In this document: positions 1-12,756 of the stretch, one piece after another
Numbering within the stretch: the stretch's first letter is position 1
Layout of the letters: every line of letters starts with the position of its first letter
Source of the DNA: a virus
Lineage: Duplodnaviria > Heunggongvirae > Uroviricota > Caudoviricetes
Reading direction: 5' to 3' (one strand)
Virus record (IMG/VR): IMGVR_UViG_2529292722_000020
Length of the DNA stretch: 14,445 bases
Program-made: the position numbers and the translations under genes
Notes under the pieces: generated by a model
What the model was told of the DNA's origin: nothing
What the model saw: only the letters and a program-made list of their open reading frames with translations
Databases searched by the model: none

Positions 1-441
<441 letters not shown>

Positions 442-445
<4 letters not shown>

Positions 446-711
446 TGCTTCATCTCCCTTTCCATTTCATCAATGTCAACGTCATCAGGAAGATGGGAGC
501 AATACGCCGCTATACCATGATGATTTATCTCATACCCTTTGAACGTTACCATCTGGCGCGTAATCTCAACTTCGTTCAGGAATCCGTCATCGCATAACTG
601 CCTGGCTATTTTCGATTTGGTCTGGATTATTGGTAGTGCCTGTTCTTTCAAAGCGCATGATATTTGTGCATCCCATGCCTTTTCGAGAATGGCTAATTGT
701 TTTTTATTCAT
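442..711 (-). CDS. Hypothetical phage protein (89 aa) in the nin-side region downstream of the helicase
   Basis: Complete ORF whose ATG overlaps the helicase-remnant stop (ATGA at 711-708). No family recognised. Confidence 0.5.
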
Positions 712-917
712 CAGAATCCTCCTTTCTTCTTGGACTGCGGTTCCTCGCGTTCACGTCGGCGCATTTCAGCAGACTGTTGGTCTGTGTCATAAATAGCGCC
801 ATTTGCCTGAATGCAATACACCGTGCCGGTATTGCCATGACGATTGAGGCGAAGGATTAGTTCGGTTTCACCAGGAGGAACGCTGTCATCAAAAGCACCT
901 TCACGATGGATCCCCAC
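711..917 (-). pseudogene. C-terminal remnant of the DnaB-like helicase, in the same frame as 936-2147 but cut off by an in-frame TAA at 936-938
   Basis: Translation across the stop reads ...SRDTGQI*QDCDYWVGIHREGAF...ELILRLNRHGNTGTVYCIQANGAIYDTD, which aligns with the DnaB C-terminus SGSIEQDADLIMFIYRDEVY...EIIIGKQRNGPIGTVRLTFNGQWSRFDN. Codon 917 is in frame with codon 935. Confidence 0.65.
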
Positions 918-935
918 CCAATAATCGCAATCCTG

Positions 936-2147
936 TTAAATCTGCCCTGTATCTCGTGAGTCACTTGGTAATGGGCGTTTATTGGTTCGGCTTTCCAGTG
1001 CGCGGTTAAGCTGTGTCAGAAGCACAACAACGCAATCAAGCTCTTTGGCAAGGTTCTTCAGTCCTTTGGTGATCATGCCGTAAGCAAGGTCGTTGCGATC
1101 GGCCTTTTCAGCGGTCATTAGTGTCAGGTAATCGACCAGAATCATGCCAACACATCCTTTTTCTCGCTTGATTCGACGGCTTTCGCTGACGATTTGAGCC
1201 AGAGATAATCCCGGCGTGTCGTCGATGTAAAGCAGGTCGATTTCACTCAAGCGATTGGCTGTTTCGATCGCCCTGTTGAAGTCACCATCGTAATCACCCT
1301 GATAGCCGTCATCAGCGTCATTTGTCGCCGGAAGGTAAAAAATATTCGGGTTAACACCTGACTTCTGTCCTACCAGTTTTTCCAGTATCTGGTCACCGGG
1401 CATTTCAAGGCTGAACATCAGAGCGGGCTTTTTCTCATGCACTGCGCAGTTGATTGCCATCTGGCTGTATAGCGTCGTTTTCCCCATCTTAGGGCGAGCG
1501 CCAATGACAAACAGAGAGCCTTTCACCAGACCTTTCGGTGACAGCATCCTGTCCAGCGATGGGATCCCTGTGCTCATTCCCCGTTGTTCGCCTGATGGGT
1601 CAAATCGCTTCTCAAGGTCGCTAACCCAGTCTTCCATGACCTCGCCAAATGAGCGAAGGCCGCGACGCGATCCGGTTTTTGCATGGTCTGTCAGTTGCGT
1701 GAAAATCGCCTGAATAGCTTCGTACTTCTGCGTCGCAGTCATTCCGTTGCGGGAATAGAGCAATTCCGTCGCTTCAGTCATGCGGTTGATGGCGTAGCGT
1801 TCCATTGCGGTTTCGCGAACCTGCATTGCATAGGCAACGATGTTTGCGGCGCTCGGCGTGTTCTTTGCGATCTCAGCGATATAAGCAAAACCGCCAACAG
1901 ACGCCGTTAACGATTTACGCTCCAGTTCATCGAAAAGCGTCAGGCCATCTACTGGCTTTTGCTCCCGGTGCATTCTGGTTATTTCTTCGAAAAGGATTTT
2001 GTGTGATCGGCTGTAAAATGAATCAGGCTTCAGCATCGCCAGAACTTTCTGGACGCGCTCACTGCTGTCATCATCCAGAAGCAATCCACCAATCACCGCC
2101 TGCTCTGCCTCGATGCTATGGGGCGGCGCATAAAAATTATCGGTCAT
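936..2147 (-). CDS. Replicative DNA helicase, DnaB family (phage P22 gene 12 type), prematurely terminated
   Basis: PPHSIEAEQAVIGGLLLD N-terminal motif and Walker A GARPKMGKT. Start chosen at ATG 2147-2145 (MTDNFY) behind a GAGGGTG Shine-Dalgarno rather than the GTG at 2162. The product lacks about 70 C-terminal residues of the RecA-like domain. Confidence 0.8.
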   Translation of the reverse strand: MTDNFYAPPHSIEAEQAVIGGLLLDDDSSERVQKVLAMLKPDSFYSRSHKILFEEITRMHREQKPVDGLTLFDELERKSLTASVGGFAYIAEIAKNTPSAANIVAYAMQVRETAMERYAINRMTEATELLYSRNGMTATQKYEAIQAIFTQLTDHAKTGSRRGLRSFGEVMEDWVSDLEKRFDPSGEQRGMSTGIPSLDRMLSPKGLVKGSLFVIGARPKMGKTTLYSQMAINCAVHEKKPALMFSLEMPGDQILEKLVGQKSGVNPNIFYLPATNDADDGYQGDYDGDFNRAIETANRLSEIDLLYIDDTPGLSLAQIVSESRRIKREKGCVGMILVDYLTLMTAEKADRNDLAYGMITKGLKNLAKELDCVVVLLTQLNRALESRTNKRPLPSDSRDTGQI

Positions 2148-3027
2148 CGTGTTCACCCTCACGAACTTTCAGGTAGGTATTATCGTTAAGCAGGAAATCA
2201 AATCCCTTTTTGTGCCAGACGGTTCCTCGCTGATGGTTTGGGCGCTCTTCGAACATCCATCGGCAATTTTCGCCTACGTATCTCAAATAATTTCTCCAGT
2301 CCTGCATCGTGAACCCATGCCCGTCAAGCTGGCGGGTTATCACTCCGGCTTTGCGCCAGAACGTTCGGATCTGGTTTTTACGCTTGTCATTCAGTGCGCG
2401 GATTCTTGGCGCTTCAGGAAGGATTTCGTGGTAAGCATCGACAACATCCTGACAGCTAACGGAAGGTTTTTTCTTGTCAGACTTTTTGTCTGCTGTGGCA
2501 CTCTCTAATACGTCAGTATTAGAGATATTATTTATATTATTGTTTATGGACAACCGTTGGACAACCGTTGGACAATCTCCGCTGAGAGCCTCGCCATTAC
2601 TGGTGTTTGCGTTGGACAACCGTTGGACAACCGTTGGACAATTTTTTGCCTGAAAATCGTCATATTTAACGATTGTAAACAGGCTAAATTTCTTCCCCAT
2701 CGAGCAAATATTAAGCATCCCTTTCGACTCAAAAGTCCGTAATAAGCTCCGAACTTTGTTGTCGGGGATGAATGTTTCTCTGACCAGCGACGGGCGTCCA
2801 GTTATCATCTGACCGCGATCAACAGTTATCGGCCCGATATCCGTATTGACGACAGTAGATTCGTGATTAGCCTTGAGGATTAAGTGAAGCCAAAGATGTA
2901 CTGCCTGAGAGTCCTTATAGAGCCTGCTGTCCATAAACTGGCGGTGTATATAGGCATACCCCATACTGGATGCCTCCTGATGTTGTACAGGGTTATGCCT
3001 GTAATCAGCTAACTTAACGACGCCCAT
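2137..3027 (-). CDS. Replication initiator, lambda O / P22 gene 18-like, with origin iterons inside the coding sequence
   Basis: Position immediately upstream of and overlapping the helicase gene; the iterons encode a repeated CPTVVQRLSN peptide, as lambda ori does within O. Confidence 0.8.
   Translation of the reverse strand: MGVVKLADYRHNPVQHQEASSMGYAYIHRQFMDSRLYKDSQAVHLWLHLILKANHESTVVNTDIGPITVDRGQMITGRPSLVRETFIPDNKVRSLLRTFESKGMLNICSMGKKFSLFTIVKYDDFQAKNCPTVVQRLSNANTSNGEALSGDCPTVVQRLSINNNINNISNTDVLESATADKKSDKKKPSVSCQDVVDAYHEILPEAPRIRALNDKRKNQIRTFWRKAGVITRQLDGHGFTMQDWRNYLRYVGENCRWMFEERPNHQRGTVWHKKGFDFLLNDNTYLKVREGEHDDR
2546..2644. repeat. Replication origin iterons: two clusters of three 11-bp direct repeats (TTGGACAACCG), flanked by an AT-rich tract at 2505-2545
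   Basis: Direct reading: clusters at 2546-2578 and 2612-2644, separated by about 33 bp. The AT-rich block taatacgtcagtattagagatattatttatattattgtttat lies on the side expected for a lambda-type ori. Confidence 0.65.
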
Positions 3028-3175
3028 GTTTCACTCCTGCTTTGGCTAGTCTGTAAACACCAACAAGGCGCTCTGCGAACGCCCTGTTATTTGCTGCGGC
3101 TACCACTAATCCCTCAGGTGAATCAGGGTGTCGAATCTCTTCTTTTTCCTGGTATTTCTTACGACGTTTTGTCAT
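3014..3175 (-). CDS. Small basic protein (53 aa, MTKRRKKYQEKEEIRHPDSPEGLVVAAANNRAFAERLVGVYRLAKAGVKHGRR) between cII-like and O-like genes
   Basis: ATG at 3175-3173 sits 5 nt behind an AGGAG Shine-Dalgarno; the stop at 3016-3014 overlaps the O start by 14 nt. Found by manual translation. Confidence 0.35.
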   Translation of the reverse strand: MTKRRKKYQEKEEIRHPDSPEGLVVAAANNRAFAERLVGVYRLAKAGVKHGRR

Positions 3176-3207
3176 AATTACTCCTGTGGATTGATCCAGT
3201 AATTCCC

Positions 3208-3504
3208 TCAGAATTGCATATCAATTTGCTTAAAATCCTCGGTGGCGGCCGGGGATTTTTTCTTTGTGATTTCATCAAGCGCATACTTAAAAGCCCTGCT
3301 AATTGGACTGATGTCTGATGCCATTCCGAAAGCACACAAGACCGAAGCAATAAACCGCCAGTCCGTTCTGCTTATCTTCGATTCATGACAACCAATCATC
3401 TTTGCCAGACCGCGCTGAGTAAGCGTTGACAGGTTGATAAGTAAATCTGTTTCAGCGCGATCAACGTCACGCTGTGTTGGCTTGCTGTAGCTTGCTTGTG
3501 CCAT
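3208..3504 (-). CDS. CII-like transcriptional activator (P22 C1 type)
   Basis: C-terminus KKKSPAATEDFKQIDMQF resembles lambda CII KKRPAATERSEQIQMEF; gene lies downstream of cro in the rightward operon. Confidence 0.8.
   Translation of the reverse strand: MAQASYSKPTQRDVDRAETDLLINLSTLTQRGLAKMIGCHESKISRTDWRFIASVLCAFGMASDISPISRAFKYALDEITKKKSPAATEDFKQIDMQF
3237..3262 (+). terminator. Antisense intrinsic terminator inside the 3' end of the cII-like gene (candidate OOP-like RNA terminator)
   Basis: Stem CCTCGG (3237-3242), loop TGGCGG, stem CCGGGG (3249-3254, one G-U pair), then TTTTTT at 3257-3262, on the strand opposite cII. Confidence 0.45.
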
Positions 3505-3572
3505 TTGTTAATTTTCCTATATTGATATTGAGTTATAGCGGCACACCCAATGGATTTGCCGCTGATGTTTGC

Positions 3573-3614
3573 TCACCCGGTTAGAGGTGAAAGGCCAGAA
3601 CTGTTAAAGAGCAA
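3573..3614 (-). promoter_or_regulatory. Candidate nutR: boxA (GCTCTTTAACAG) plus boxB hairpin with CUAACC loop
   Basis: Minus-strand boxA at 3612-3601 directly after the cro stop; hairpin UCACCU-CUAACC-GGGUGA at 3590-3573. Confidence 0.45.
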
Positions 3615-3619
3615 TTTGC

Positions 3620-3805
3620 TTATGCCGCTTGGCGGTAAGCACTTTCTTGATACTTCAGGGCGCCAGCTGTAACGATTTCCAATCGATAGGCGTCTTTCTC
3701 TGGGATAACTTCTTTCCACTGAGAGACTGCTGCATCGCTAATGCCTAGTGCTTTAGCAACAGCACGCTGGGTTCCGAAGTGGTCAATAACATCTTTTTTG
3801 TACAT
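3620..3805 (-). CDS. cro: Cro repressor, P22 type
   Basis: 61-aa product MYKKDVIDHFGTQRAVAKALGISDAAVSQWKEVIPEKDAYRLEIVTAGALKYQESAYRQAA matches my recollection of P22 Cro almost residue for residue; divergent from the repressor gene. Confidence 0.9.
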   Translation of the reverse strand: MYKKDVIDHFGTQRAVAKALGISDAAVSQWKEVIPEKDAYRLEIVTAGALKYQESAYRQAA

Positions 3806-3885
3806 AGACTCGCTCCGAAATTAAAGAACACTTAAATTATCCACCAAAGGAATCTTAAGTCAAGTTTATTTAAGATGTCTTAACT
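3806..3885. promoter_or_regulatory. Right operator region (OR) with divergent PR/PRM between cro and c2
   Basis: Palindromic sites with TTAAGA / TCTTAA half-sites: ATTAAAGAACACTTAAAT near 3820-3838 and TTTAAGATGTCTTAA at 3869-3883, the latter abutting the c2 ATG. Confidence 0.6.
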
Positions 3886-4536
3886 ATGAATACACAACTG
3901 ATGGGTGAGCGTATTCGCGCTCGCAGAAAAGAACTCAAGATTAGGCAGGCTGCCCTTGGCAAGATGGTTGGCGTGTCTAATGTTGCTATTTCCCAATGGG
4001 AGCGATCTGAAACTGAGCCCAATGGCGAAAACCTATTGGCCTTAGCCAAGGCTTTGCAGTGCTCCCCTGATTACCTGTTGAAAGGAGAGGATAGTCTTTC
4101 AAACATTGCCTATCACAGCAGGCATGATCCAAGAGGTTCGTATCCTCTAATTAGTTGGGTAAGCGCAGGATGTTGGATGGAAGCTGTAGAGCCATATCAT
4201 AGGCGTGCAATAGATAACTGGTACGACACAACGGTAGATTGTTCTGAAGACTCTTTTTGGCTCGACGTTAAAGGCGATTCAATGACTGCCCCGGCAGGAC
4301 TGAGTATTCCTGAGGGGATGATTATTCTCGTCGACCCAGAAGTCGAACCACGTAATGGAAAGCTGGTAGTCGCCAAACTTGAAGGGGAAAACGAGGCGAC
4401 ATTCAAAAAGTTAGTTATTGATGCCGGTAGAAAATTCCTGAAACCACTCAATCCACAATACCCAATGATTGAAATCAATGGGAACTGTAAAATCATTGGC
4501 GTTGTCGTTGATGCCAAGCTAGCAAACCTTCCTTAA
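3886..4536 (+). CDS. c2: Phage repressor, P22 c2 type (N-terminal HTH domain plus C-terminal LexA/S24-like autocleavage domain)
   Basis: 216 aa; N-terminus MNTQLMGERIRARRKELKIRQAALGKMVGVSNVAISQWERSETEPNGENLLALAKALQCSPDYLLKG matches remembered P22 c2; the C-terminal half has the GDSM...K serine-lysine dyad pattern. Confidence 0.9.
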   Translation: MNTQLMGERIRARRKELKIRQAALGKMVGVSNVAISQWERSETEPNGENLLALAKALQCSPDYLLKGEDSLSNIAYHSRHDPRGSYPLISWVSAGCWMEAVEPYHRRAIDNWYDTTVDCSEDSFWLDVKGDSMTAPAGLSIPEGMIILVDPEVEPRNGKLVVAKLEGENEATFKKLVIDAGRKFLKPLNPQYPMIEINGNCKIIGVVVDAKLANLP

Positions 4537-4556
4537 GGGGCTTTCGCCCCTTTTTT
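4537..4556 (+). terminator. Intrinsic terminator after the repressor gene
   Basis: GGGGC-TTTC-GCCCC hairpin followed by TTTTTT, immediately after the TAA at 4534-4536. Confidence 0.7.
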
Positions 4557-4599
4557 ATTTCCCGTTAAAAATCAAAGACAAACTAAATTCACGCCCATA

Positions 4600-4656
4600 A
4601 AATTAAGTTTTCTTCAAAAATGCACTTGACCAATAAATTAAGAAGTCTTAAATTTA
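4600..4656 (+). promoter_or_regulatory. PL promoter with overlapping OL operators
   Basis: -35 TTGACC (4626-4631), 17-bp spacer, -10 TAAATT (4649-4654); palindrome ATTAAGAAGTCTTAAAT (4637-4653) overlaps the promoter, with a degenerate second site near 4603-4616. Confidence 0.5.
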
Positions 4657-4699
4657 AGCCATCAGCAGGACGCTGGAAGCCAAACGGAACAGATTGGCA

Positions 4700-4740
4700 G
4701 GCTCTTTAACATCGACGGACTCTCAACCTAACCGTTGAGA
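4700..4740 (+). promoter_or_regulatory. Candidate nutL: boxA (GGCTCTTTAAC) plus boxB hairpin (7-bp stem, CUAACC loop)
   Basis: GCTCTTTAAC at 4701-4710 matches the boxA consensus; hairpin TCTCAAC-CTAACC-GTTGAGA at 4721-4740 has no following U-run, so it is not a terminator. Lies between PL and the N-like gene. Confidence 0.5.
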
Positions 4741-4850
4741 CCAGAACTTGAGTGGTTTTGGGGATGGCGCGAATTGCAGCTGCAAGACAGCGATCGAGAA
4801 GATAAGCACCTCGACGCGTCATGCGCCAAAGCCACTTAAAGGAGACCATC

Positions 4851-5156
4851 ATGGTAACCATTGTCTGGAAAGAATCCAAAGGTACGGCAAAAAGCCGCTA
4901 CAAAGCTCGCAGAGCAGAACTTATTGCCGAGCGACGCAGTAATGAAGCACTGGCGCGAAAAATTGCGCTAAAGCTCTCTGGTTGCGTCAGAGCAGACAAA
5001 GCAGCATCACTAGGAAGCCTTTGCTGCAAGAAGAAAGAAGAAGTCGTTCGAAAAAATAGAAGTATTTATTACAAAGATTCAAACCCGTTAGGAAACAAAA
5101 TTCATGCAGTCCAAAAAATAAAATTGTACAGTAAACTACCGTACGGTGCTTATTGA
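4851..5156 (+). CDS. N: N-like transcription antiterminator with arginine-rich motif (phage 21 N type)
   Basis: ATG at 4851 sits 7 nt after AAGGAG; the N-terminal GTAKSRYKARRAELIAERR matches the arginine-rich boxB-binding peptide I recall for phage 21 N; first gene downstream of PL and nutL. The track's upstream start at 4821 has no Shine-Dalgarno. Confidence 0.7.
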   Translation: MVTIVWKESKGTAKSRYKARRAELIAERRSNEALARKIALKLSGCVRADKAASLGSLCCKKKEEVVRKNRSIYYKDSNPLGNKIHAVQKIKLYSKLPYGAY

Positions 5157-5158
5157 GT

Positions 5159-5497
5159 ATGCTTATGGTGAAAAAGACTATTTATGTTAATCCTGACCGC
5201 GGACAAAACAGAAAAGTATCTGATAGAGGTCTTACATCTCGAGACAGGAGGAGAATAGCGAGATGGGAAAAAAGGATAGCATATGCATTAAAAAACGGTG
5301 TAACACCTGGATTTAATGCTATAGATGACGGTCCTGAATATAAAATTAATGAAGAACCAATGGACAAAGTTGACAAAGCATTAGCAACACCATTTCCTCG
5401 CGATGTCGAAAAAATTGAAGATGAAAAATATGAGGATGTAATGCACAGAGTTGTTAATCACGCTCACCAACGAAATCCAAATAAAAAATGGTCATAG
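5159..5497 (+). CDS. Hypothetical charged protein (about 112 aa), AT-rich accessory gene
   Basis: ORF immediately after N, followed directly by an intrinsic terminator. Start uncertain (TTG 5153, ATG 5159 or ATG 5165); no family recognised. Confidence 0.45.
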   Translation: MLMVKKTIYVNPDRGQNRKVSDRGLTSRDRRRIARWEKRIAYALKNGVTPGFNAIDDGPEYKINEEPMDKVDKALATPFPRDVEKIEDEKYEDVMHRVVNHAHQRNPNKKWS

Positions 5498-5517
5498 CCC
5501 ACTTCGGTGGGTTTTTT
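5498..5517 (+). terminator. Intrinsic terminator
   Basis: CCCAC-TTCG-GTGGG hairpin followed by TTTTTT, starting one base after the TAG stop. Confidence 0.7.
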
Positions 5518-5630
5518 ATTGTCTGAACAAATCTAATTTACTACCGCAAGCCACGCAGTGAAATGGGTGTGACTTGTGTTGGTCGCCAGAAAATGAAATT
5601 AGGCAGCAAACCACTTATTTGAGGTGAGAT

Positions 5631-6101
5631 ATGACAAAATCATGGAGCGTACCTTTTCCTGAATCAGAAACTGAACATGATGGAATGCCTGTTTTCTGGA
5701 GATTCCAGGCGACAGTTGAAGAAGATGGGATAAAAATATTCGCACTTCAATATATAGCTTTTCATCAGACAGAGCATTATGCATGGTTGGTTCCTGCGCA
5801 TTGGATTGTTGATTTTAAACCAGCACCAAATCAGTGGTTACAGGAATGGAAACAAAAGAGAAATAGATATGCAATTAAGAAAGTAGCAAAAAATGCAGAA
5901 AGATCTTTTGCATTCCCAACGAAGAAACTTGCCATTGAAAGTTTATTGCGCCGGAAGAAATACCATTTAATGAGAATCAAACAAGATTTGGCTGTTGTAT
6001 CAACTCTTGTTGATGGGATGAAGAATATTGATACATCAACACCAGATATTGAATATAACTTTGGGCACAACCAAGAAACAGAAAATTGGGTATTTTATTA
6101 G
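5631..6101 (+). CDS. Hypothetical protein (156 aa), AT-rich moron gene
   Basis: GAGGTGAG Shine-Dalgarno 5 nt before ATG 5631; lies between two intrinsic terminators; no family recognised. Confidence 0.55.
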   Translation: MTKSWSVPFPESETEHDGMPVFWRFQATVEEDGIKIFALQYIAFHQTEHYAWLVPAHWIVDFKPAPNQWLQEWKQKRNRYAIKKVAKNAERSFAFPTKKLAIESLLRRKKYHLMRIKQDLAVVSTLVDGMKNIDTSTPDIEYNFGHNQETENWVFY

Positions 6102-6206
6102 TACGAGTAAGCACTGTGTATTCATTCCAACGAGTGAATACACGGAGCAATGTCGCTCGTAACTAAACAGGAGCCGACTTGTTCTGATTATTGGAAATCT
6201 TCTTTG

Positions 6207-6229
6207 CCCTCCGATGTGGGGGGCTTTTT
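6207..6229 (+). terminator. Intrinsic terminator closing the moron unit
   Basis: CCCTCC-GATGT-GGGGGG hairpin (one G-U pair) followed by CTTTTTA. Confidence 0.5.
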
Positions 6230-6295
6230 ATATGCATACCAATAACGCTTCACTCGAGGCGTTTTCGTTATGCAATCAAACAGAAGGAGCATCCT

Positions 6296-6466
6296 ATGCA
6301 ACAGTTCGCTATTGCAGGGGCGGCATCGGTTCGCCCTTTCAACCCGATTTTATCGGTACAGCATTCACGAAAAAATATTTTAACCGGAGCAGACTTTAAA
6401 CAACCAAGAATGAAAAGCTTGCTCGAAAAGCTTTGGGATATTTTGAAACAACAAGGCCGTCCATGA
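6296..6466 (+). CDS. CIII-like protein (putative FtsH inhibitor), 56 aa
   Basis: AAGGAG Shine-Dalgarno 8 nt before ATG 6296; MQQFAIAG...SLLEKLWDILKQQGRP resembles lambda CIII (MQYAIAG...SLLERITRKLRDGWKRLIDILNQPGVP). The longer overlapping ORFs in the track are rejected. Confidence 0.5.
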   Translation: MQQFAIAGAASVRPFNPILSVQHSRKNILTGADFKQPRMKSLLEKLWDILKQQGRP

Positions 6467-6621
6467 GTTTTACAGATAACTGGTCAGACGAAGAATTCAT
6501 TCGTCAGATGAAAGAATTAATCGGTAACGAAGGAGATATTCATGTCACTTGCAACCACAGTGAAGGAGAGCAAGTTACAGAGACGCATGTACACGCAGAA
6601 AGCTCTCTGGTATCGCCATAA
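6463..6621 (+). CDS. Small acidic protein (52 aa) in the kil position
   Basis: ATG 6463 overlaps the cIII-like stop (ATGA). Assigned by position only. Confidence 0.3.
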   Translation: MSFTDNWSDEEFIRQMKELIGNEGDIHVTCNHSEGEQVTETHVHAESSLVSP

Positions 6622-6720
6622 TGGCGACCGCGAAGGAATGCGGGTATGCCTTAATTTGTCCCGAGTCGAAGTATTAAATCAGCGTTATTTCCTTGGGCCG
6701 TGTCCATTCTGAGGTGAATT

Positions 6721-7428
6721 ATGGATTTGAATAAATTCGATGAGCCATTCAGCCCTGAAGATATCGAATGGCGAATACAGCAAAGCGGTAAAACACGCGA
6801 TGGCAAGGGGTGGGCTATGGTGCTGGCTTATGTCACGAACCGGGCAATCATGAAACGCCTGGACGATGTTTGCGGCAAAGCAGGATGGCGCAATGAATAC
6901 CGCGATATTCCCAACAACGGCGGCGTTGAATGCGGCATATCAATAAAGATTGATTCCGAATGGGTAACCAAATGGGATGCTGCTGAAAACACGCAGGTAG
7001 AAGCCGTCAAAGGTGGTCGTTCAGGTGCAATGAAGCGCGCTGCCGTTCAGTGGGGAATCGGTCGGTATCTGTATAACCTTGAGGAAGGTTTCGCACAAAC
7101 ATCTCTCGATAAAAAGCAGGGATGGCACAGGGCAAAACTCAAGGATGGAACAGGATTTTACTGGCTCCCTCCATCGCTGCCGGGATGGGCAATACCAGCA
7201 TCAGATAACAAACCATCACCAGAAAATACCAACCAGAAATCTCCATCGGTTGACTGCGAACAAATCCTGAAAGACTTCAGCGATTATGCGTCAACAGAAA
7301 CTGACAAGAAAAAACTCATCGAGCGTTATCAGCGTGACTGGCAATTAATGGCTGGCAACGAGGAGGCGCAGGCTAAATGCGTTCAGGTAATGAACATCAG
7401 AGTTAACGAACTAAAACAGGCGGCATAA
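6721..7428 (+). CDS. Rad52-family single-strand annealing protein (Sak-like recombinase)
   Basis: GAGGTGA Shine-Dalgarno before ATG 6721; AYVTNRAIMKRLDDVCGKAGW and GAMKRAAVQWGIGRYLYN match Rad52 N-domain patterns ([20 protein letters not shown] and KRALRSFGNALGN); occupies the bet position. Confidence 0.7.
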   Translation: MDLNKFDEPFSPEDIEWRIQQSGKTRDGKGWAMVLAYVTNRAIMKRLDDVCGKAGWRNEYRDIPNNGGVECGISIKIDSEWVTKWDAAENTQVEAVKGGRSGAMKRAAVQWGIGRYLYNLEEGFAQTSLDKKQGWHRAKLKDGTGFYWLPPSLPGWAIPASDNKPSPENTNQKSPSVDCEQILKDFSDYASTETDKKKLIERYQRDWQLMAGNEEAQAKCVQVMNIRVNELKQAA

Positions 7429-7896
7429 ATGTCTCACTTGGACGGAATTATTAAAAGATTCGAGTCCAGCTACAAAGTTAATGAAACAACAGGTTGCTGG
7501 GAGTCTACCTATTCAAAAAACAAAGGAGGATACACAAAATTTGTAGCCTTTGGCGTAACAATGCTTTCTCATCGGGTTGCTTTTGAGCTTTATCACTCCC
7601 CCATTCCATCTGGGAAGATGGTTTGCCACAAATGCGATAACCCATGCTGCGTTAATCCTGAACATCTCTTTTTAGGTAGCGCGCAAGAAAACATGGACGA
7701 CAAGATAGCAAAAGGAAGGCATCGTGGAGCCAAGAAAGGTCATGCTCATCATGGTGCAAAATTAACAGAGTGGCAGGGTATAGAAATTAGGAAAAGACTC
7801 TCTGAAAAAGAGAGTCAGTACAAGATAGCAAAAGACATGGGTGTATCTCAATCAATTATAAGCAACATAAAAACTGGCAAGAGGTGGAGCAAATGA
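7429..7896 (+). CDS. HNH homing-type endonuclease with C-terminal HTH
   Basis: HNH motif [26 protein letters not shown]; start abuts the SSAP stop (TAAATG); the end overlaps the SSB start. Confidence 0.8.
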
Positions 7897-8399
7897 GTTC
7901 TCGCGGGATAAATAAGGTGATTATCCTTGGTCGGGTAGGACAAGACCCGGAAGTTCGATACTCACCATCAGGAACAGCGTTCGCTAACCTGACAATAGCC
8001 ACGTCAGAACAATGGCGAGATAAAAATACTGGCGAGCAAAAGGAATTGACTGAATGGCATCGTGTTGCTGTATCCGGGAAACTGGCTGAGGTCGTGGGGC
8101 AGTATGTGAAAAAAGGTGATCAGATTTATTTCGAGGGAATGCTGAGAACCAGAAAATGGAAAGACCAGTCAGGGCAAGACCGTTACACAACCGAGGTTCA
8201 TGTCGGAATTAATGGCGTGATGCAAATGCTTGGCGGCATTGGCGACAGCAAACAACAAGCAGCCAGCAGGCAATCACAGAAGCCACAGCAGCAATCATCA
8301 CCAGCACAACACAACGAACCTCCGATGGATTTTGACGACGATATACCCTTTGCACCAGTAACTCTCCCCTTCCCTCGTCACGCTATTCACGCAATTTAA
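7893..8399 (+). CDS. ssb: Single-stranded DNA-binding protein SSB, with a 15-aa extension after the DDDIPF tail
   Basis: [23 protein letters not shown]...TEWHRVAV...[11 protein letters not shown] closely resembles E. coli SSB; GAGGTG Shine-Dalgarno 6 nt before ATG 7893. Confidence 0.9.
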
Positions 8400-8407
8400 G
8401 GACTTAC

Positions 8408-8956
8408 ATGAATCACTTAATGGTTGACCTTGAAACAATGGGCAACGGGCCATACGCGCCAGTTATTTCTATTGGGGCGGTATTCTTTGACCCGAATACC
8501 GGAGAAACAGGAGAAGAGTTCTCGGTAAATATCTCGCTTGAGTCATCAATGCGATATCGGGCGCGTCCTGACGCTTCAACGATTTTATGGTGGATGGAAC
8601 AGAGTGAAGAAGCCAGAAAATCGCTAACCAGCAACACTCAAGAGCTTTCAACAGCTCTTTCATGGTTATCTGAATTCATCATAAAGAACGCTAACCACAA
8701 ATTCGTTCAGGTTTGGGGGAATGGAGCATCATTTGACTGCGTTATTCTCCGCAACAGTTATTCGCTGACAGGGCAGCCAGTTCCGTGGCAGTGGTGGAAT
8801 GACCGCGACGTAAGAACAATCGTCGAGCTTGGAAAGGTAATAGGATTCGACCCTAAGCGAGATATGCCATTCAAAGGAACTCGCCACAACGCGCTTGATG
8901 ATGCCATCCACCAAGCCAAATACGTTTCAGCGATCTGGAAAAAGTTAGCTAAATAA
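8408..8956 (+). CDS. DnaQ-like (DEDDh) 3'-5' exonuclease
   Basis: Exo I motif MVDLETMG and Exo III motif HNALDDAIHQAKY; sits in the phage recombination module. Confidence 0.7.
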   Translation: MNHLMVDLETMGNGPYAPVISIGAVFFDPNTGETGEEFSVNISLESSMRYRARPDASTILWWMEQSEEARKSLTSNTQELSTALSWLSEFIIKNANHKFVQVWGNGASFDCVILRNSYSLTGQPVPWQWWNDRDVRTIVELGKVIGFDPKRDMPFKGTRHNALDDAIHQAKYVSAIWKKLAK

Positions 8957-8972
8957 TCAACCGGAGAAAAAC

Positions 8973-9266
8973 ATGCCAGCGCCTTTGTATGGTGCGGATG
9001 ACCCGCGCCGCTGTTCCGGCAATTCTGTATCGGAGGTGCTGGATAAATTCAGAAAAAACTACGATCGAATAATGTCTCTACCGCAGGAAACGAAAGAGGA
9101 AAAGGAATTTCGCCACTGTATATGGCTTGCAGAGAAAGAAGAACGCGAGCGAATTTACCAGACATCAATCCGACCATTCCGCAAAGCCACATATACCCAC
9201 TTCCCTGAAATTGACCCGCGCCTGCGTCATTACCGCTCACGCTATGGCGCTATCAGTAATGACTGA
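8973..9266 (+). CDS. Hypothetical protein (97 aa)
   Basis: ORF with a GGAGA Shine-Dalgarno; no family recognised. Confidence 0.5.
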   Translation: MPAPLYGADDPRRCSGNSVSEVLDKFRKNYDRIMSLPQETKEEKEFRHCIWLAEKEERERIYQTSIRPFRKATYTHFPEIDPRLRHYRSRYGAISND

Positions 9267-9277
9267 GGAATTAACAA

Positions 9278-9567
9278 TGAAAACAAAGAAGCTAAACATC
9301 GACATCGGCAAATACGTTATTACCGGAACCAAACACGATCTGATTCTTAGCGAAAGAGGAATTATCAAAGAAGGCGAGAATGCAGGGAAAGAAACACTAA
9401 GTCGTATCGGTTATTACAGCAAGTTTGAGCATCTGGTCAAAGAGTTATGCAACCGTGAAATCCTGTTATCTCAGGCGCAGACGCTACAGGATATTCAGCA
9501 GCATATCGATACTTTAGGTGTATCACTTAGCATGGCTGTTGACCAGTTCATGGAGAGTAAATCATGA
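9278..9567 (+). CDS. Hypothetical protein (96 aa)
   Basis: Start taken at ATG 9278 behind a GAGG Shine-Dalgarno rather than the track's upstream start at 9127; no family recognised. Confidence 0.5.
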
Positions 9568-9731: not shown

Positions 9732-9880
9732 GTAACCGTTTTTACATGATGTGCTTGCGTGAAACTGTAGGTGATAACGCCTCATTCCATTGCCATAACG
9801 GCAATGAGCATGGCGAGATGGCTATGAAGCATGGAAAACGCCTGTCGAAGTATATTGTGATGAGTGGGGTGGGTGAATGA
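9728..9880 (+). CDS. Hypothetical small Cys/His-containing protein (50 aa)
   Basis: GTG 9728 sits 6 nt after AAAGGAGG and overlaps the upstream stop (GTGA); its own stop overlaps the methyltransferase start (ATGA). Confidence 0.4.
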
Positions 9881-10605
9881 TTTGCCTTCACAACGCAGAC
9901 TGCTTTGACATCTTTCCGCAAATCGCCAGCAACTCCGTAGATCTTGTATGTGCCGATATTCCATATGGAACAACTCGGTGTCGCTGGGATTCTGTTCTCG
10001 ACCTGCAGTTGATGTGGAAGCAGATTTACCGTATTTCCAAACCGAACGCTGCAATTGTTCTGTTTTCCGCTCAGCCTTTTACCAGCGTGCTGGTCAACAG
10101 CAATCTTCGTGACTGGAAAACAGAATGGATTTGGGAAAAGCCACACGCGACAGGATTTTTGAACGCAAAAAAACAACCTTTAAGAGCGCATGAAAATATT
10201 GAAGTTTTTTACAGAAAGCAACCGACATACAACCCACAGATGACGTATGGGAACGCCAGAAAAACCTCAACAAGAGGTAGGCTGAATACTGATGTATATG
10301 GCGATGCGCTGAAAAAGGTCGTTTACGATTCAACAAGTCGCTATCCGAGAGACGTGCAGAAATTCTCCAGCGACAAGCAAAAGCAGGCACTTCATTCAAC
10401 ACAAAAGCCACTGGCTCTGGTGAGATATCTGATTGAAACATATAGCAATATTGGCGACACAGTGTTGGATTTCACTATGGGTAGCGGAACTACTGGCGTT
10501 GCGTGCCAACAATCAGGACGCCGATTTACAGGAATAGAAAAAGATCCAGAAATTTTTCGTATCGCATTAGAGCGTATGGGAATTAAACAGGAGCATGCAG
10601 CATGA
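9877..10605 (+). CDS. Orphan DNA methyltransferase, beta class (N6-adenine or N4-cytosine)
   Basis: Motif IV-like DIPY (CADIPYG) near the N-terminus and motif I FTMGSGTTG near the C-terminus, the beta-class order; no adjacent restriction endonuclease. Confidence 0.8.
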   Translation: MICLHNADCFDIFPQIASNSVDLVCADIPYGTTRCRWDSVLDLQLMWKQIYRISKPNAAIVLFSAQPFTSVLVNSNLRDWKTEWIWEKPHATGFLNAKKQPLRAHENIEVFYRKQPTYNPQMTYGNARKTSTRGRLNTDVYGDALKKVVYDSTSRYPRDVQKFSSDKQKQALHSTQKPLALVRYLIETYSNIGDTVLDFTMGSGTTGVACQQSGRRFTGIEKDPEIFRIALERMGIKQEHAA

Positions 10606-12467: not shown

Positions 12468-12668
12468 ATGCAACACGAACTACAGCCTGATTCACTGGTT
12501 GATTTGAAATTCATCATGGCCGATACTGGCTTTGGTAAAACCTTCATCTACGACCGGATTAAGTCCGGCGACCTGCCAAAAGCCAAAGTTATCCACGGGC
12601 GAGCAAGATGGTTATATCGTGACCATTGTGAATTCAAAAATAAGCTCTTAAGCCGCGCCAATGGGTAA
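12468..12668 (+). CDS. AlpA/Xis-family excisionase-like DNA-binding protein
   Basis: 66 aa with winged-helix pattern ...MADTGFGKTFIYDRIKSGDLPKAKVIHGRARWLYRDHCEF...; sits at the integration-proximal end of the prophage. Confidence 0.7.
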   Translation: MQHELQPDSLVDLKFIMADTGFGKTFIYDRIKSGDLPKAKVIHGRARWLYRDHCEFKNKLLSRANG

Positions 12669-12741
12669 AATAGCGGGTAAAATATTTCTCACATCTAAAA
12701 AACACCATTCTAATCAATCCCCTGCCGCGTCAAGTAGATGT

Positions 12742-12756
12742 CTGCAGGGGACACCA
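12742..12756 (+). other. 3'-terminal fragment of tRNA-Arg argW (acceptor 3' strand plus CCA); host side of the attachment junction
   Basis: CTGCAGGGGACACCA matches the argW 3' end as I recall it; it is the direct continuation of the fragment at 12433-12448. Confidence 0.55.

What the first reader, a model, noticed from the sequence alone, without database searches (positions are those of the whole stretch)
711..2147. Replicative helicase gene interrupted by an in-frame TAA at a conserved Glu position
Reading through 936-938 gives ...SRDTGQI*QDCDYW..., aligned to the DnaB motif ...SGSIEQDADLIMF...; the codon is TAA where GAA is expected, and the downstream 68 codons continue the DnaB C-terminal domain in the same frame. 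This is a single-base nonsense change, not a frameshift, and it removes part of the ATPase domain. Together with the IS insertion and the missing integrase it indicates a defective prophage.
Basis: seen in the sequence. Interest (0 to 1): 0.55.

Follow-up and report, generated by a model that had tools for sequence, protein, structure and literature searches.

The report
Probable sequencing-error stop in prophage helicase
The stop codon inside this prophage DNA-helicase gene is really in the record, but it occurs in only one 2013 short-read draft genome whose other odd bases look like base-calling errors, so it is most likely an artefact and the finding is ordinary.

Summary
On the minus strand, 711-2147 is a 478-codon DnaB-type helicase frame with TAA at 936-938. 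It replaces a Glu that is conserved in 115 of 118 diverse homologues. The stop removes 75 residues, including the arginine finger (R436).

The window is the start of contig AQDI01000086.1, an Illumina-era draft of ETEC strain 2866450. Three complete genomes and three sister drafts of the same clone read GAA, as do 375 E. coli records and at least 120 viral contigs. The truncated protein occurs on one contig among about 15 billion proteins.

The four drafts differ from the complete genomes at 18 events over about 20 kb. Thirteen are T>G/A>C, mostly GGT>GGG, the classic Illumina systematic miscall. Four are G>T/C>A next to TT/AA, and the stop is one of these. These variants are shared among drafts in a pattern no tree can explain, which means recurrent site-specific error.

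I therefore rate the stop a consensus error (about 0.75). The alternative is a recent private knockout (about 0.2).

The "missing integrase" is wrong. IntS sits beside tRNA-Arg (argW) at the other prophage end, as in KplE1/HK620/Sf6. The IS100 insertion is real but is shared with genomes that have an intact helicase.

The parts
711..2147 (-). Full reading frame of the phage DnaB-type replicative helicase (478 codons plus stop), interrupted at codon 404
   Evidence: Translation. The same coordinates are annotated as an intact 478-aa CDS, WP_001388106.1, in three complete genomes. Pfam DnaB covers residues 8-112 and DnaB_C residues 190-445.
936..938 (-). In-frame TAA replacing GAA (E404). The variant base is window 938 (A on +, T on the coding strand, in the context ATT[G>T]AAC)
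   Evidence: The base is C (GAA) in all six sister genomes. None of 375 E. coli records matches a 120-nt query round it at 100%. All 120 viral contigs checked carry C.
939..2147 (-). Truncated 403-aa product as deposited (EMV72379.1)
   Evidence: An exact look-up finds it on one contig only, AQDI01000086.1 of GCA_000354935.2.
711..917 (-). 68-codon remnant ORF (GTG start) carrying the C-terminal strands, deposited as EMV72378.1
840..842 (-). Codon for R436, equivalent of the E. coli DnaB R442 arginine finger (KQRNG / LNRHG). It lies downstream of the stop
   Evidence: Alignment to 6bbm. Arg in 114 of 118 homologues. Coordinates. The arginine-finger role is from general knowledge of DnaB-family helicases.
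1473..1502 (-). Walker A / P-loop GARPKMGKTT (residues 216-225), retained upstream of the stop
2137..3027 (-). Lambda-O-like replication initiator gene, overlapping the helicase start by 11 bases. It holds the probable origin iterons at 2536-2653
   Evidence: Annotated as O / replication protein in Stx phages. Two blocks of three 11-bp TTGTCCAACGG repeats.
442..711 (-). 89-aa ORF directly downstream of the helicase; function unknown
   Evidence: No Pfam match.
1..310 (-). End of IS100 (start of istA at 1-222). The contig breaks here
   Evidence: Annotation in sister genomes. IS end TGTGTCACGAACGG at 310. The window is contig positions 2-14446.
12468..12668 (+). torI-type excisionase (recombination directionality factor) at the prophage end
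   Evidence: Annotation. Literature: PMC2951348.
12742..12756 (+). Attachment-site core CTGCAGGGGACACCA, marking the prophage boundary. The second copy is the 3' end of tRNA-Arg next to intS in ETEC-2264
6809..6809 (+). Second suspect base: GGT>GGG (Rad52-like V30G)
   Evidence: Present in drafts AQDI, AQDM and AQDN but not AQDB.
7778..7778 (+). Third suspect base: GGT>GGG (HNH V117G)
   Evidence: The same variant protein occurs in three short ENA metagenome scaffolds (one labelled coverage 2.26), at least one on another phage background.
8156..8156 (+). Fourth suspect base: AAAG>AAAA (ssb, synonymous)
   Evidence: drafts AQDI and AQDB only.
10252..10252 (+). Fifth suspect base: C>A next to A (methyltransferase H126N), the same class as the stop
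   Evidence: drafts AQDI and AQDB only; two contigs in the whole collection.

Best explanation
The gene is the DnaB-type replicative helicase of a roughly 43-kb P22/Sf6/HK620-like prophage integrated at argW in a CS7 ETEC clone. It sits directly after the O-like initiator gene that carries the origin iterons. In the living phage it would be loaded at that origin to unwind DNA after induction. The TAA at 936-938 is most likely not in the bacterium. It is most likely a consensus base-call error (G read as T after TT) in the 2013 draft of strain 2866450 (presumed Illumina). Shown: the identity of the gene, the single-base difference, its uniqueness, and the error-like, non-tree-like spectrum of all other differences in four drafts of that batch. 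Inferred: that base 938 belongs to that error population. If the base were real, the product would lack the last strands of the RecA fold and the trans-acting arginine finger, so the hexamer should not hydrolyse NTP and the prophage could not drive its own replication.
For: (1) Source. The truncated protein maps to one contig, AQDI01000086.1 of GCA_000354935.2, which ends inside IS100 as short-read assemblies do.
(2) Uniqueness. The intact protein, identical apart from E404, is on 172 contigs and the truncated one on 1. The TAA 25-mer has 0 hits in IMG/VR and 0 in metagenome contigs, while the same 25-mer with N hits at least 120 viral contigs, all GAA. No 100% match exists among 375 E. coli records.
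(3) Error spectrum. Across about 20 kb, four drafts of the same clone differ from three complete genomes at 18 events. Thirteen are T>G/A>C and four are G>T/C>A beside TT/AA (938, 4564, 10252, 19759). Three positions are transitions, two of them inside dinucleotide changes to GG.
(4) Statistics. For the first 14 differences, 7 strict GGT>GGG cases against 0.85% expected gives p about 1e-11. All 14 copy a neighbouring base (p about 7e-6). Twelve of 14 are A<->C or G<->T (p about 8e-5).
(5) Literature. GGT>GGG is the strongest Illumina systematic-error motif, and its positions are replicable between runs (PMC3295828; PMC3622629).
(6) Sharing pattern. The variants fail the four-gamete test: 6809 in {AQDI, AQDM, AQDN}, 7778 in {AQDI, AQDN}, 12221 in {AQDM, AQDN}, 8156 and 10252 in {AQDI, AQDB}. 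They recur rather than being inherited.
(7) Independent recurrence. The 7778 variant also appears in three short ENA metagenome scaffolds (one labelled coverage 2.26), at least one on another phage background.
(8) Sources. The variant proteins occur in NCBI records (one also in ENA) but never in Logan re-assemblies, whereas the reference alleles do.
(9) Contrast. The complete genomes' own private differences are ordinary A/G transitions.
Against: No reads were inspected, so the call rests on association. Base 938 is not the classic GGT>GGG motif. It is G>T after TT, a smaller class here (4 of 18 events). Unlike 6809, 7778, 10252 and 12221, it does not recur in another draft. Published per-read error rates at such motifs are only a few percent, so consensus errors imply low coverage or a faulty pipeline, which I could not verify. 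Real inactivation of this helicase does happen. Other assemblies carry a stop at L393, a stop at R398 and a 1-nt frameshift at Q402, the last in six or more Logan runs. The complete genomes show roughly one genuine private SNP per 20 kb, so one of the six private differences of 2866450 could be real.
Confidence: 0.75

Rival explanations
1. The TAA is a genuine, very recent G:C>T:A mutation private to strain 2866450. It truncates the helicase before its arginine finger and makes the prophage unable to replicate on its own. This would be ordinary prophage decay.
For: The base is in the public record (EMV72379.1). Prophage helicases of this family are independently broken elsewhere: stops at L393 and R398, and a frameshift at Q402 seen in six or more Logan runs. 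The prophage already carries IS100 and small pseudogenes. Complete genomes of the clone show about one real private SNP per 14-20 kb. Base 938 does not recur in other drafts as the clearest artefacts do.
Against: The change is unique among about 15 billion proteins, 5,426 complete E. coli genomes, IMG/VR and JGI metagenome contigs. It belongs to a set of differences with a non-biological spectrum, with no standalone transition private to this strain, and with non-tree-like sharing. G:C>T:A is a minor class of natural E. coli SNPs (general knowledge).
Confidence: 0.2
2. The strains are real oxidised-guanine mutators (mutT / mutY-mutM type), so the A:T>C:G and G:C>T:A changes, including the stop, are genuine hypermutation.
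For: The spectrum is almost purely A:T>C:G plus G:C>T:A, which are the two classes raised in mutT and mutY/mutM mutants (general knowledge).
Against: The same sites recur in incompatible combinations among four drafts and in unrelated metagenome scaffolds. The dominant context is exactly the Illumina GGT>GGG motif. Three complete genomes of the same clone show none of these changes. The rate, about 3e-4 per base per strain, would imply some 1,500 private SNPs per isolate. The mutT and mutY genes could not be examined.
Confidence: 0.04
3. The stop comes from collapsing reads of a second, pseudogenised copy of the helicase elsewhere in the genome into one consensus.
For: E. coli genomes often hold several lambdoid prophages. 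Some genomes have two or three places matching this gene.
Against: The three sister complete genomes have a single copy of this helicase region (places_in_record 1 for H31-H33). No genome anywhere carries the TAA allele that would act as donor.
Confidence: 0.01

Closest known systems
DnaB-type 'P' helicase of Stx-converting phages (VT2-Sakai, Stx2 phage 86, phi296) and its intact allele WP_001388106.1 in ETEC-2264, 90-9280 and E2980
   Same: Identity is 98.5-98.8% at nucleotide level over 1.7 kb to the phage genes and 1,700 of 1,701 bases to the ETEC allele. Length is the same (478 aa). The position is the same, after the O-like initiator and before an 89-aa ORF.
   Different: Only the G>T at window 938, which turns E404 into a stop.
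Cellular replicative helicase DnaB (E. coli, PDB 6bbm)
   Same: The two-domain architecture is shared, with Walker A, the SGxIEQDxD motif and the KxRxG arginine finger. The alignment covers residues 6-445 at E = 3.6e-82.
   Different: This is a phage-encoded paralogue with a 33-residue charged C-terminal tail. Here it is truncated after residue 403 in the deposited sequence.
Illumina sequence-specific (systematic) base-call errors, GGT>GGG type (Meacham et al. 2011, PMC3295828; Allhoff et al. 2013, PMC3622629)
   Same: The differences of the four drafts are dominated by T>G after GG. They copy the preceding base, stay within the G/T and A/C pairs, and recur at the same positions in independent data sets.
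   Different: The stop itself is G>T after TT, not T>G after GG, and it is seen in only one draft. Strand bias, the defining read-level property, could not be examined.
KplE1 / HK620 / Sf6 / CUS-3 recombination module at argW
   Same: The torI excisionase and the att core CTGCAGGGGACACCA lie at this end. intS lies beside tRNA-Arg with the second core copy at the other end.
   Different: None relevant. This shows that the apparent absence of an integrase in the window is the normal layout.

Membership tests
DnaB-family replicative helicase | N-terminal DnaB domain (PF00772) | tested here: met
   Residues 8-112, E = 2.3e-31, 108 bits against a cut-off of 23.
DnaB-family replicative helicase | Complete C-terminal RecA-type domain (PF03796) | tested here: not met
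   The intact allele matches profile positions 1-244 of 255 over residues 190-445. The window's product stops after residue 403, so about 42 domain residues are missing.
DnaB-family replicative helicase | Walker A P-loop GKT | tested here: met
   GARPKMGKTT at residues 216-225 aligns with ARPSMGKTT of E. coli DnaB.
DnaB-family replicative helicase | Conserved Glu of the SGxIEQDxD motif | tested here: not met
   The codon is TAA in the window. The column is Glu in 115 of 118 homologues and in all sister genomes.
DnaB-family replicative helicase | Arginine finger (E. coli R442 equivalent) present in the product | tested here: not met
   R436 is encoded at 840-842, downstream of the stop. The column is Arg in 114 of 118 homologues.
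DnaB-family replicative helicase | Hexamer formation, NTPase and 5'-3' unwinding activity | not testable with these tools
   Needs biochemistry.
Illumina systematic base-call error | Substitution copies the preceding base within a G/T or A/C pair | tested here: met
   On the coding strand the change is ATT[G>T]AAC. All of the first 14 differences share the neighbour-copy property (p about 7e-6).
Illumina systematic base-call error | Canonical motif GGT>GGG | tested here: not met
   Base 938 is TTG>TTT. The motif is met by 7 of the first 14 differences in the same drafts (p about 1e-11) but not by this one.
Illumina systematic base-call error | Recurrence at the same position in independent runs | tested here: not met
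   938 is variant in AQDI only. Recurrence is seen at 6809, 7778, 10252, 12221 and 8156 and at 7778 in metagenomes.
Illumina systematic base-call error | Strand bias and low base quality of supporting reads | not testable with these tools
Illumina systematic base-call error | Variant absent from independent assemblies of the same clone | tested here: met
   Three complete genomes and three other drafts read GAA. The truncated protein is on one contig only.
Defective (cryptic) prophage | Loss of integrase or attachment sites | tested here: not met
   In the colinear ETEC-2264 genome intS is intact beside tRNA-Arg and both att cores are present. The other end of the prophage in strain 2866450 lies on another contig and was not seen.
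Defective (cryptic) prophage | Insertion or pseudogenes in the early-to-late operon | tested here: met
   IS100 lies between the replication genes and ninB-Q, and there are partial NinE, nuclease and HNH genes. Whether this blocks induction is untested.

The most novel reading that the evidence does not exclude
The transversions are real. On this reading a Bangladeshi CS7 ETEC sub-lineage is, or was, an oxidised-guanine (mutT / mutY-like) hypermutator with strong site hot spots, and the helicase stop is one of its hits, freshly disabling replication of an otherwise complete argW prophage.
Probability: 0.04. Interest if true: 0.35.

Novelty: not a real feature. Interest (0 to 1): 0.07.

Why it matters
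It matters mainly as a caution. One wrong base in a public draft produces two deposited 'proteins' (EMV72379.1 and EMV72378.1) and an apparent pseudogene that could be read as prophage decay. The same window holds at least four more suspect bases that create amino-acid variants (Rad52 V30G, HNH V117G, methyltransferase H126N), and these are already propagated into RefSeq and UniRef entries. If the stop were real it would still be an ordinary private knockout of a prophage replication gene, with no new biology.

Tried and rejected
I looked for the TAA allele in five places: complete E. coli genomes, IMG/VR, JGI metagenome contigs, INPHARED phages (best match 98.8%) and the 15-billion-protein collection. 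It was found only in the source contig.

I replaced it with an N-containing pattern.

I first took all five window differences to be private to this strain. Look-ups of the variant proteins showed that four of them recur in other drafts. That changed the argument from 'private SNP cluster' to 'recurrent, non-tree-like errors'.

The apparent clustering of independent helicase lesions at codons 393-404 is an ascertainment effect of querying with the 68-aa remnant ORF, so I rejected it as a hot spot.

I looked for a target-site duplication at IS100 and found only TCATA / TATGA in inverted orientation. I did not pursue this.

Walking further along the contig to enlarge the error statistics was not possible, because only window-encoded proteins may be looked up. 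A paper search for the strain gave only its CS7 and CRISPR context.

Full report
**What is in the sequence**

Read on the minus strand, 711-2147 is one frame of 478 codons that contains a single TAA at 936-938 (...SRDTGQI*QDCDYWVGIHRE...) and ends at the natural stop at 711-713. ORF listing therefore shows two pieces, 936-2162 and 711-917.

**What the gene is**

The intact version matches Pfam DnaB (residues 8-112) and DnaB_C (residues 190-445) well above their cut-offs. It aligns over residues 6-445 with E. coli DnaB structures at E = 3.6e-82. At nucleotide level it is 98.5-98.8% identical to the 'P' / DnaB-like helicase genes of Stx-converting phages such as VT2-Sakai, Stx2 phage 86 and phi296.

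The gene overlaps by 11 bases the end of a lambda-O-like initiator gene (2137-3027). That gene contains two blocks of three 11-bp TTGTCCAACGG repeats at 2536-2653, which are the probable origin iterons.

**What the stop would do**

E404 aligns with E409 of E. coli DnaB in SGSIEQDAD. I aligned 118 full-length representatives from a search of 1.84 billion cluster representatives.
- The E404 column is Glu in 115 of them.
- The column of R436 (E. coli R442 in KQRNG, the arginine finger by general knowledge) is Arg in 114.
- Every homologue runs at least 54 residues (median 76) beyond the stop position.

No homologue ends naturally there. The deposited product would lack 75 residues, including the arginine finger.

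**Where the window comes from**

An exact look-up of the 403-aa product finds a single contig, AQDI01000086.1 of GCA_000354935.2 (E. coli 2866450, protein EMV72379.1). The window is contig positions 2-14446, and the contig ends inside IS100. Strain 2866450 is a CS7-expressing ETEC (PMC6301781).

Three complete genomes are colinear with the whole window: ETEC-2264, O114:H49 90-9280 and E2980.

**How unusual the stop is**

- Over 1,701 bases the only difference from 90-9280 is base 938.
- The intact protein, identical apart from E404, is on 172 contigs, while the truncated one is on 1.
- A 120-nt query round the stop hits 375 E. coli records, none at 100%.
- The 25-mer with the TAA allele has no match in IMG/VR or in the JGI metagenome contigs.
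- The same 25-mer with N at that base hits at least 120 viral contigs, all carrying the GAA allele.

**The other differences in this assembly batch**

Looking up the window's variant proteins retrieved three further drafts of the same clone from the same accession series: AQDB01000092.1, AQDM01000095.1 and AQDN01000078.1. All three have an intact 478-aa helicase.

Over about 17-20 kb, which covers the prophage plus the chromosomal csc genes and dsdA, the four drafts differ from the complete genomes at 18 events.
- Thirteen are T>G/A>C, mostly GGT>GGG.
- Four are G>T/C>A directly beside TT or AA: 938 (the stop), 4564, 10252 and 19759.
- The only transitions are 8156 and two bases that sit inside dinucleotide changes to GG.

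The complete genomes' own private differences, at 4591 and 8653, are plain A/G transitions.

For the first 14 differences I computed three tests.
- Seven strict GGT>GGG cases against 0.85% expected give p about 1e-11.
- All 14 copy a neighbouring base, which gives p about 7e-6.
- Twelve of 14 are A<->C or G<->T, which gives p about 8e-5.

Meacham et al. report GGT>GGG as the strongest Illumina systematic-error motif and find its positions highly replicable between experiments (PMC3295828). Allhoff et al. confirm the motif on GAIIx, HiSeq and MiSeq data (PMC3622629).

**The variants are not inherited**

The sharing pattern among the four drafts is as follows.

| Site | Drafts carrying the variant |
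|---|---|
| 6809 | AQDI, AQDM, AQDN |
| 7778 | AQDI, AQDN |
| 12221 | AQDM, AQDN |
| 8156 and 10252 | AQDI, AQDB |

Several site pairs show all four combinations. In a nearly identical clonal segment that requires repeated change at the same sites. The 7778 variant protein also turns up in three short ENA metagenome scaffolds (one labelled coverage 2.26), at least one on a different phage background. The variant proteins occur in NCBI records (one also in ENA) but never in Logan re-assemblies, whereas the reference alleles do. Recurrent site-specific miscalling explains all of this. Descent does not.

**Verdict on the stop**

Base 938 belongs to the smaller G>T-after-TT class and is seen in one draft only, so its status is inferred by association and not shown. 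I took three things into account.
- The complete genomes suggest about one genuine private SNP per 20 kb.
- G:C>T:A changes are rare among natural SNPs.
- The drafts carry at least three other changes of the same class and context.

On that basis I put the probability of an artefact at about 0.75 and of a real private nonsense mutation at about 0.2.

Real inactivation of this helicase does occur elsewhere. Other assemblies carry a stop at L393, a CGA>TGA stop at R398 (in a copy that also carries an intein in the Walker A site) and a 1-nt frameshift at Q402 found in six or more Logan runs. The apparent clustering of these lesions is caused by the way I queried, using the 68-aa remnant ORF. A collapsed second gene copy is unlikely, because the sister genomes hold one copy of this region.

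In ETEC-2264 the prophage is a roughly 43-kb P22-like element. It runs from tRNA-Arg and intS through an O-antigen polymerase gene, tailspike, head genes, lysis genes, Q and the nin region. It then continues through IS100, the helicase, the O-like gene, cII, cro and the repressor, and the recombination genes to torI.

The 15-nt att core CTGCAGGGGACACCA lies at the 3' end of tRNA-Arg and again at window 12742-12756, 74 bases after torI. It corresponds to the first 15 bases of the 16-nt KplE1 core given in PMC2951348. That paper describes the same recombination module in KplE1, HK620, Sf6 and CUS-3. An unrelated mosaic prophage in NCTC8623 has the same torI-cscB junction.

So the integrase is not missing. 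It is simply at the other end, outside the window and, in this draft, on another contig. The IS100 insertion is real. It may impair read-through to the late genes, but it is shared by all six sister genomes with an intact helicase.

**Novelty**

There is none. The gene, the prophage type, its recombination module and the error type are all known. The finding is best filed as a probable assembly artefact. The fallback reading is ordinary prophage decay.

Noticed in passing
window 6809, 7778, 8156, 10252: Four more bases differ from all three complete sister genomes. They cause Rad52-like V30G, HNH V117G, a synonymous change in ssb, and methyltransferase H126N. All copy a neighbouring base and two are GGT>GGG. 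They recur among sister drafts in a non-tree-like pattern, so they are probably base-call errors that now exist as separate RefSeq/UniRef proteins (WP_001712826.1, WP_024172030.1, WP_032267735.1).
   Followed up: yes
window 2536-2653: Two blocks of three tandem 11-bp repeats (TTGTCCAACGG on the coding strand), 44 bp apart, lie inside the O-like initiator gene. They are probably the phage origin iterons.
   Followed up: partly
window 12468-12756: The torI-type excisionase is followed 74 bp later by the att core CTGCAGGGGACACCA, which marks the prophage boundary next to the csc sucrose genes. The second core copy is the 3' end of tRNA-Arg beside intS in ETEC-2264 (L022 9185-9199).
   Followed up: yes
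L010 742-3207 (ENA metagenome scaffold): A near-identical helicase carries an insertion of about 340 residues, apparently an intein, inside the Walker A motif (GK|...HN|TT). It also has an in-frame TGA at R398, six codons before the window's stop.
   Followed up: partly
L012-L017 (Logan assemblies), helicase codon 402: A 1-nt frameshift allele of the same helicase (429-aa product overlapping the 68-aa remnant) is seen in six or more independent sequencing runs. L008 has a stop at L393. These look like genuine pseudogenised copies in other prophages.
   Followed up: partly
window 9877-10605 (methyltransferase) and protein P0217: A 197-aa version of this 242-aa DNA methyltransferase is deposited from 11 contigs, including several ETEC drafts with EMV accessions (e.g. 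E. coli 2872800). It could be another recurrent assembly or annotation defect.
   Followed up: no
window 300-320 and L018 25820-25840: At the two IS100 ends the flanks read TCATA and TATGA, which are inverted and not direct. I saw no clean target-site duplication. The partial HNH gene beyond the IS lacks its C-terminus, so a deletion or rearrangement may have accompanied the insertion.
   Followed up: partly
strain level (PMC6301781): That paper notes a lone Ile>Leu change in the CS7 major subunit of strain 2866450. Ile>Leu needs an A>C (or A>T) first-base change, so it may be the same kind of assembly error.
   Followed up: no
L147, L148, L149 (ENA metagenome scaffolds): The HNH V117G (GGT>GGG) variant reappears in three short metagenome scaffolds (one labelled coverage 2.26), at least one with a different phage neighbourhood. 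This suggests the site is a reproducible Illumina error hot spot.
   Followed up: partly
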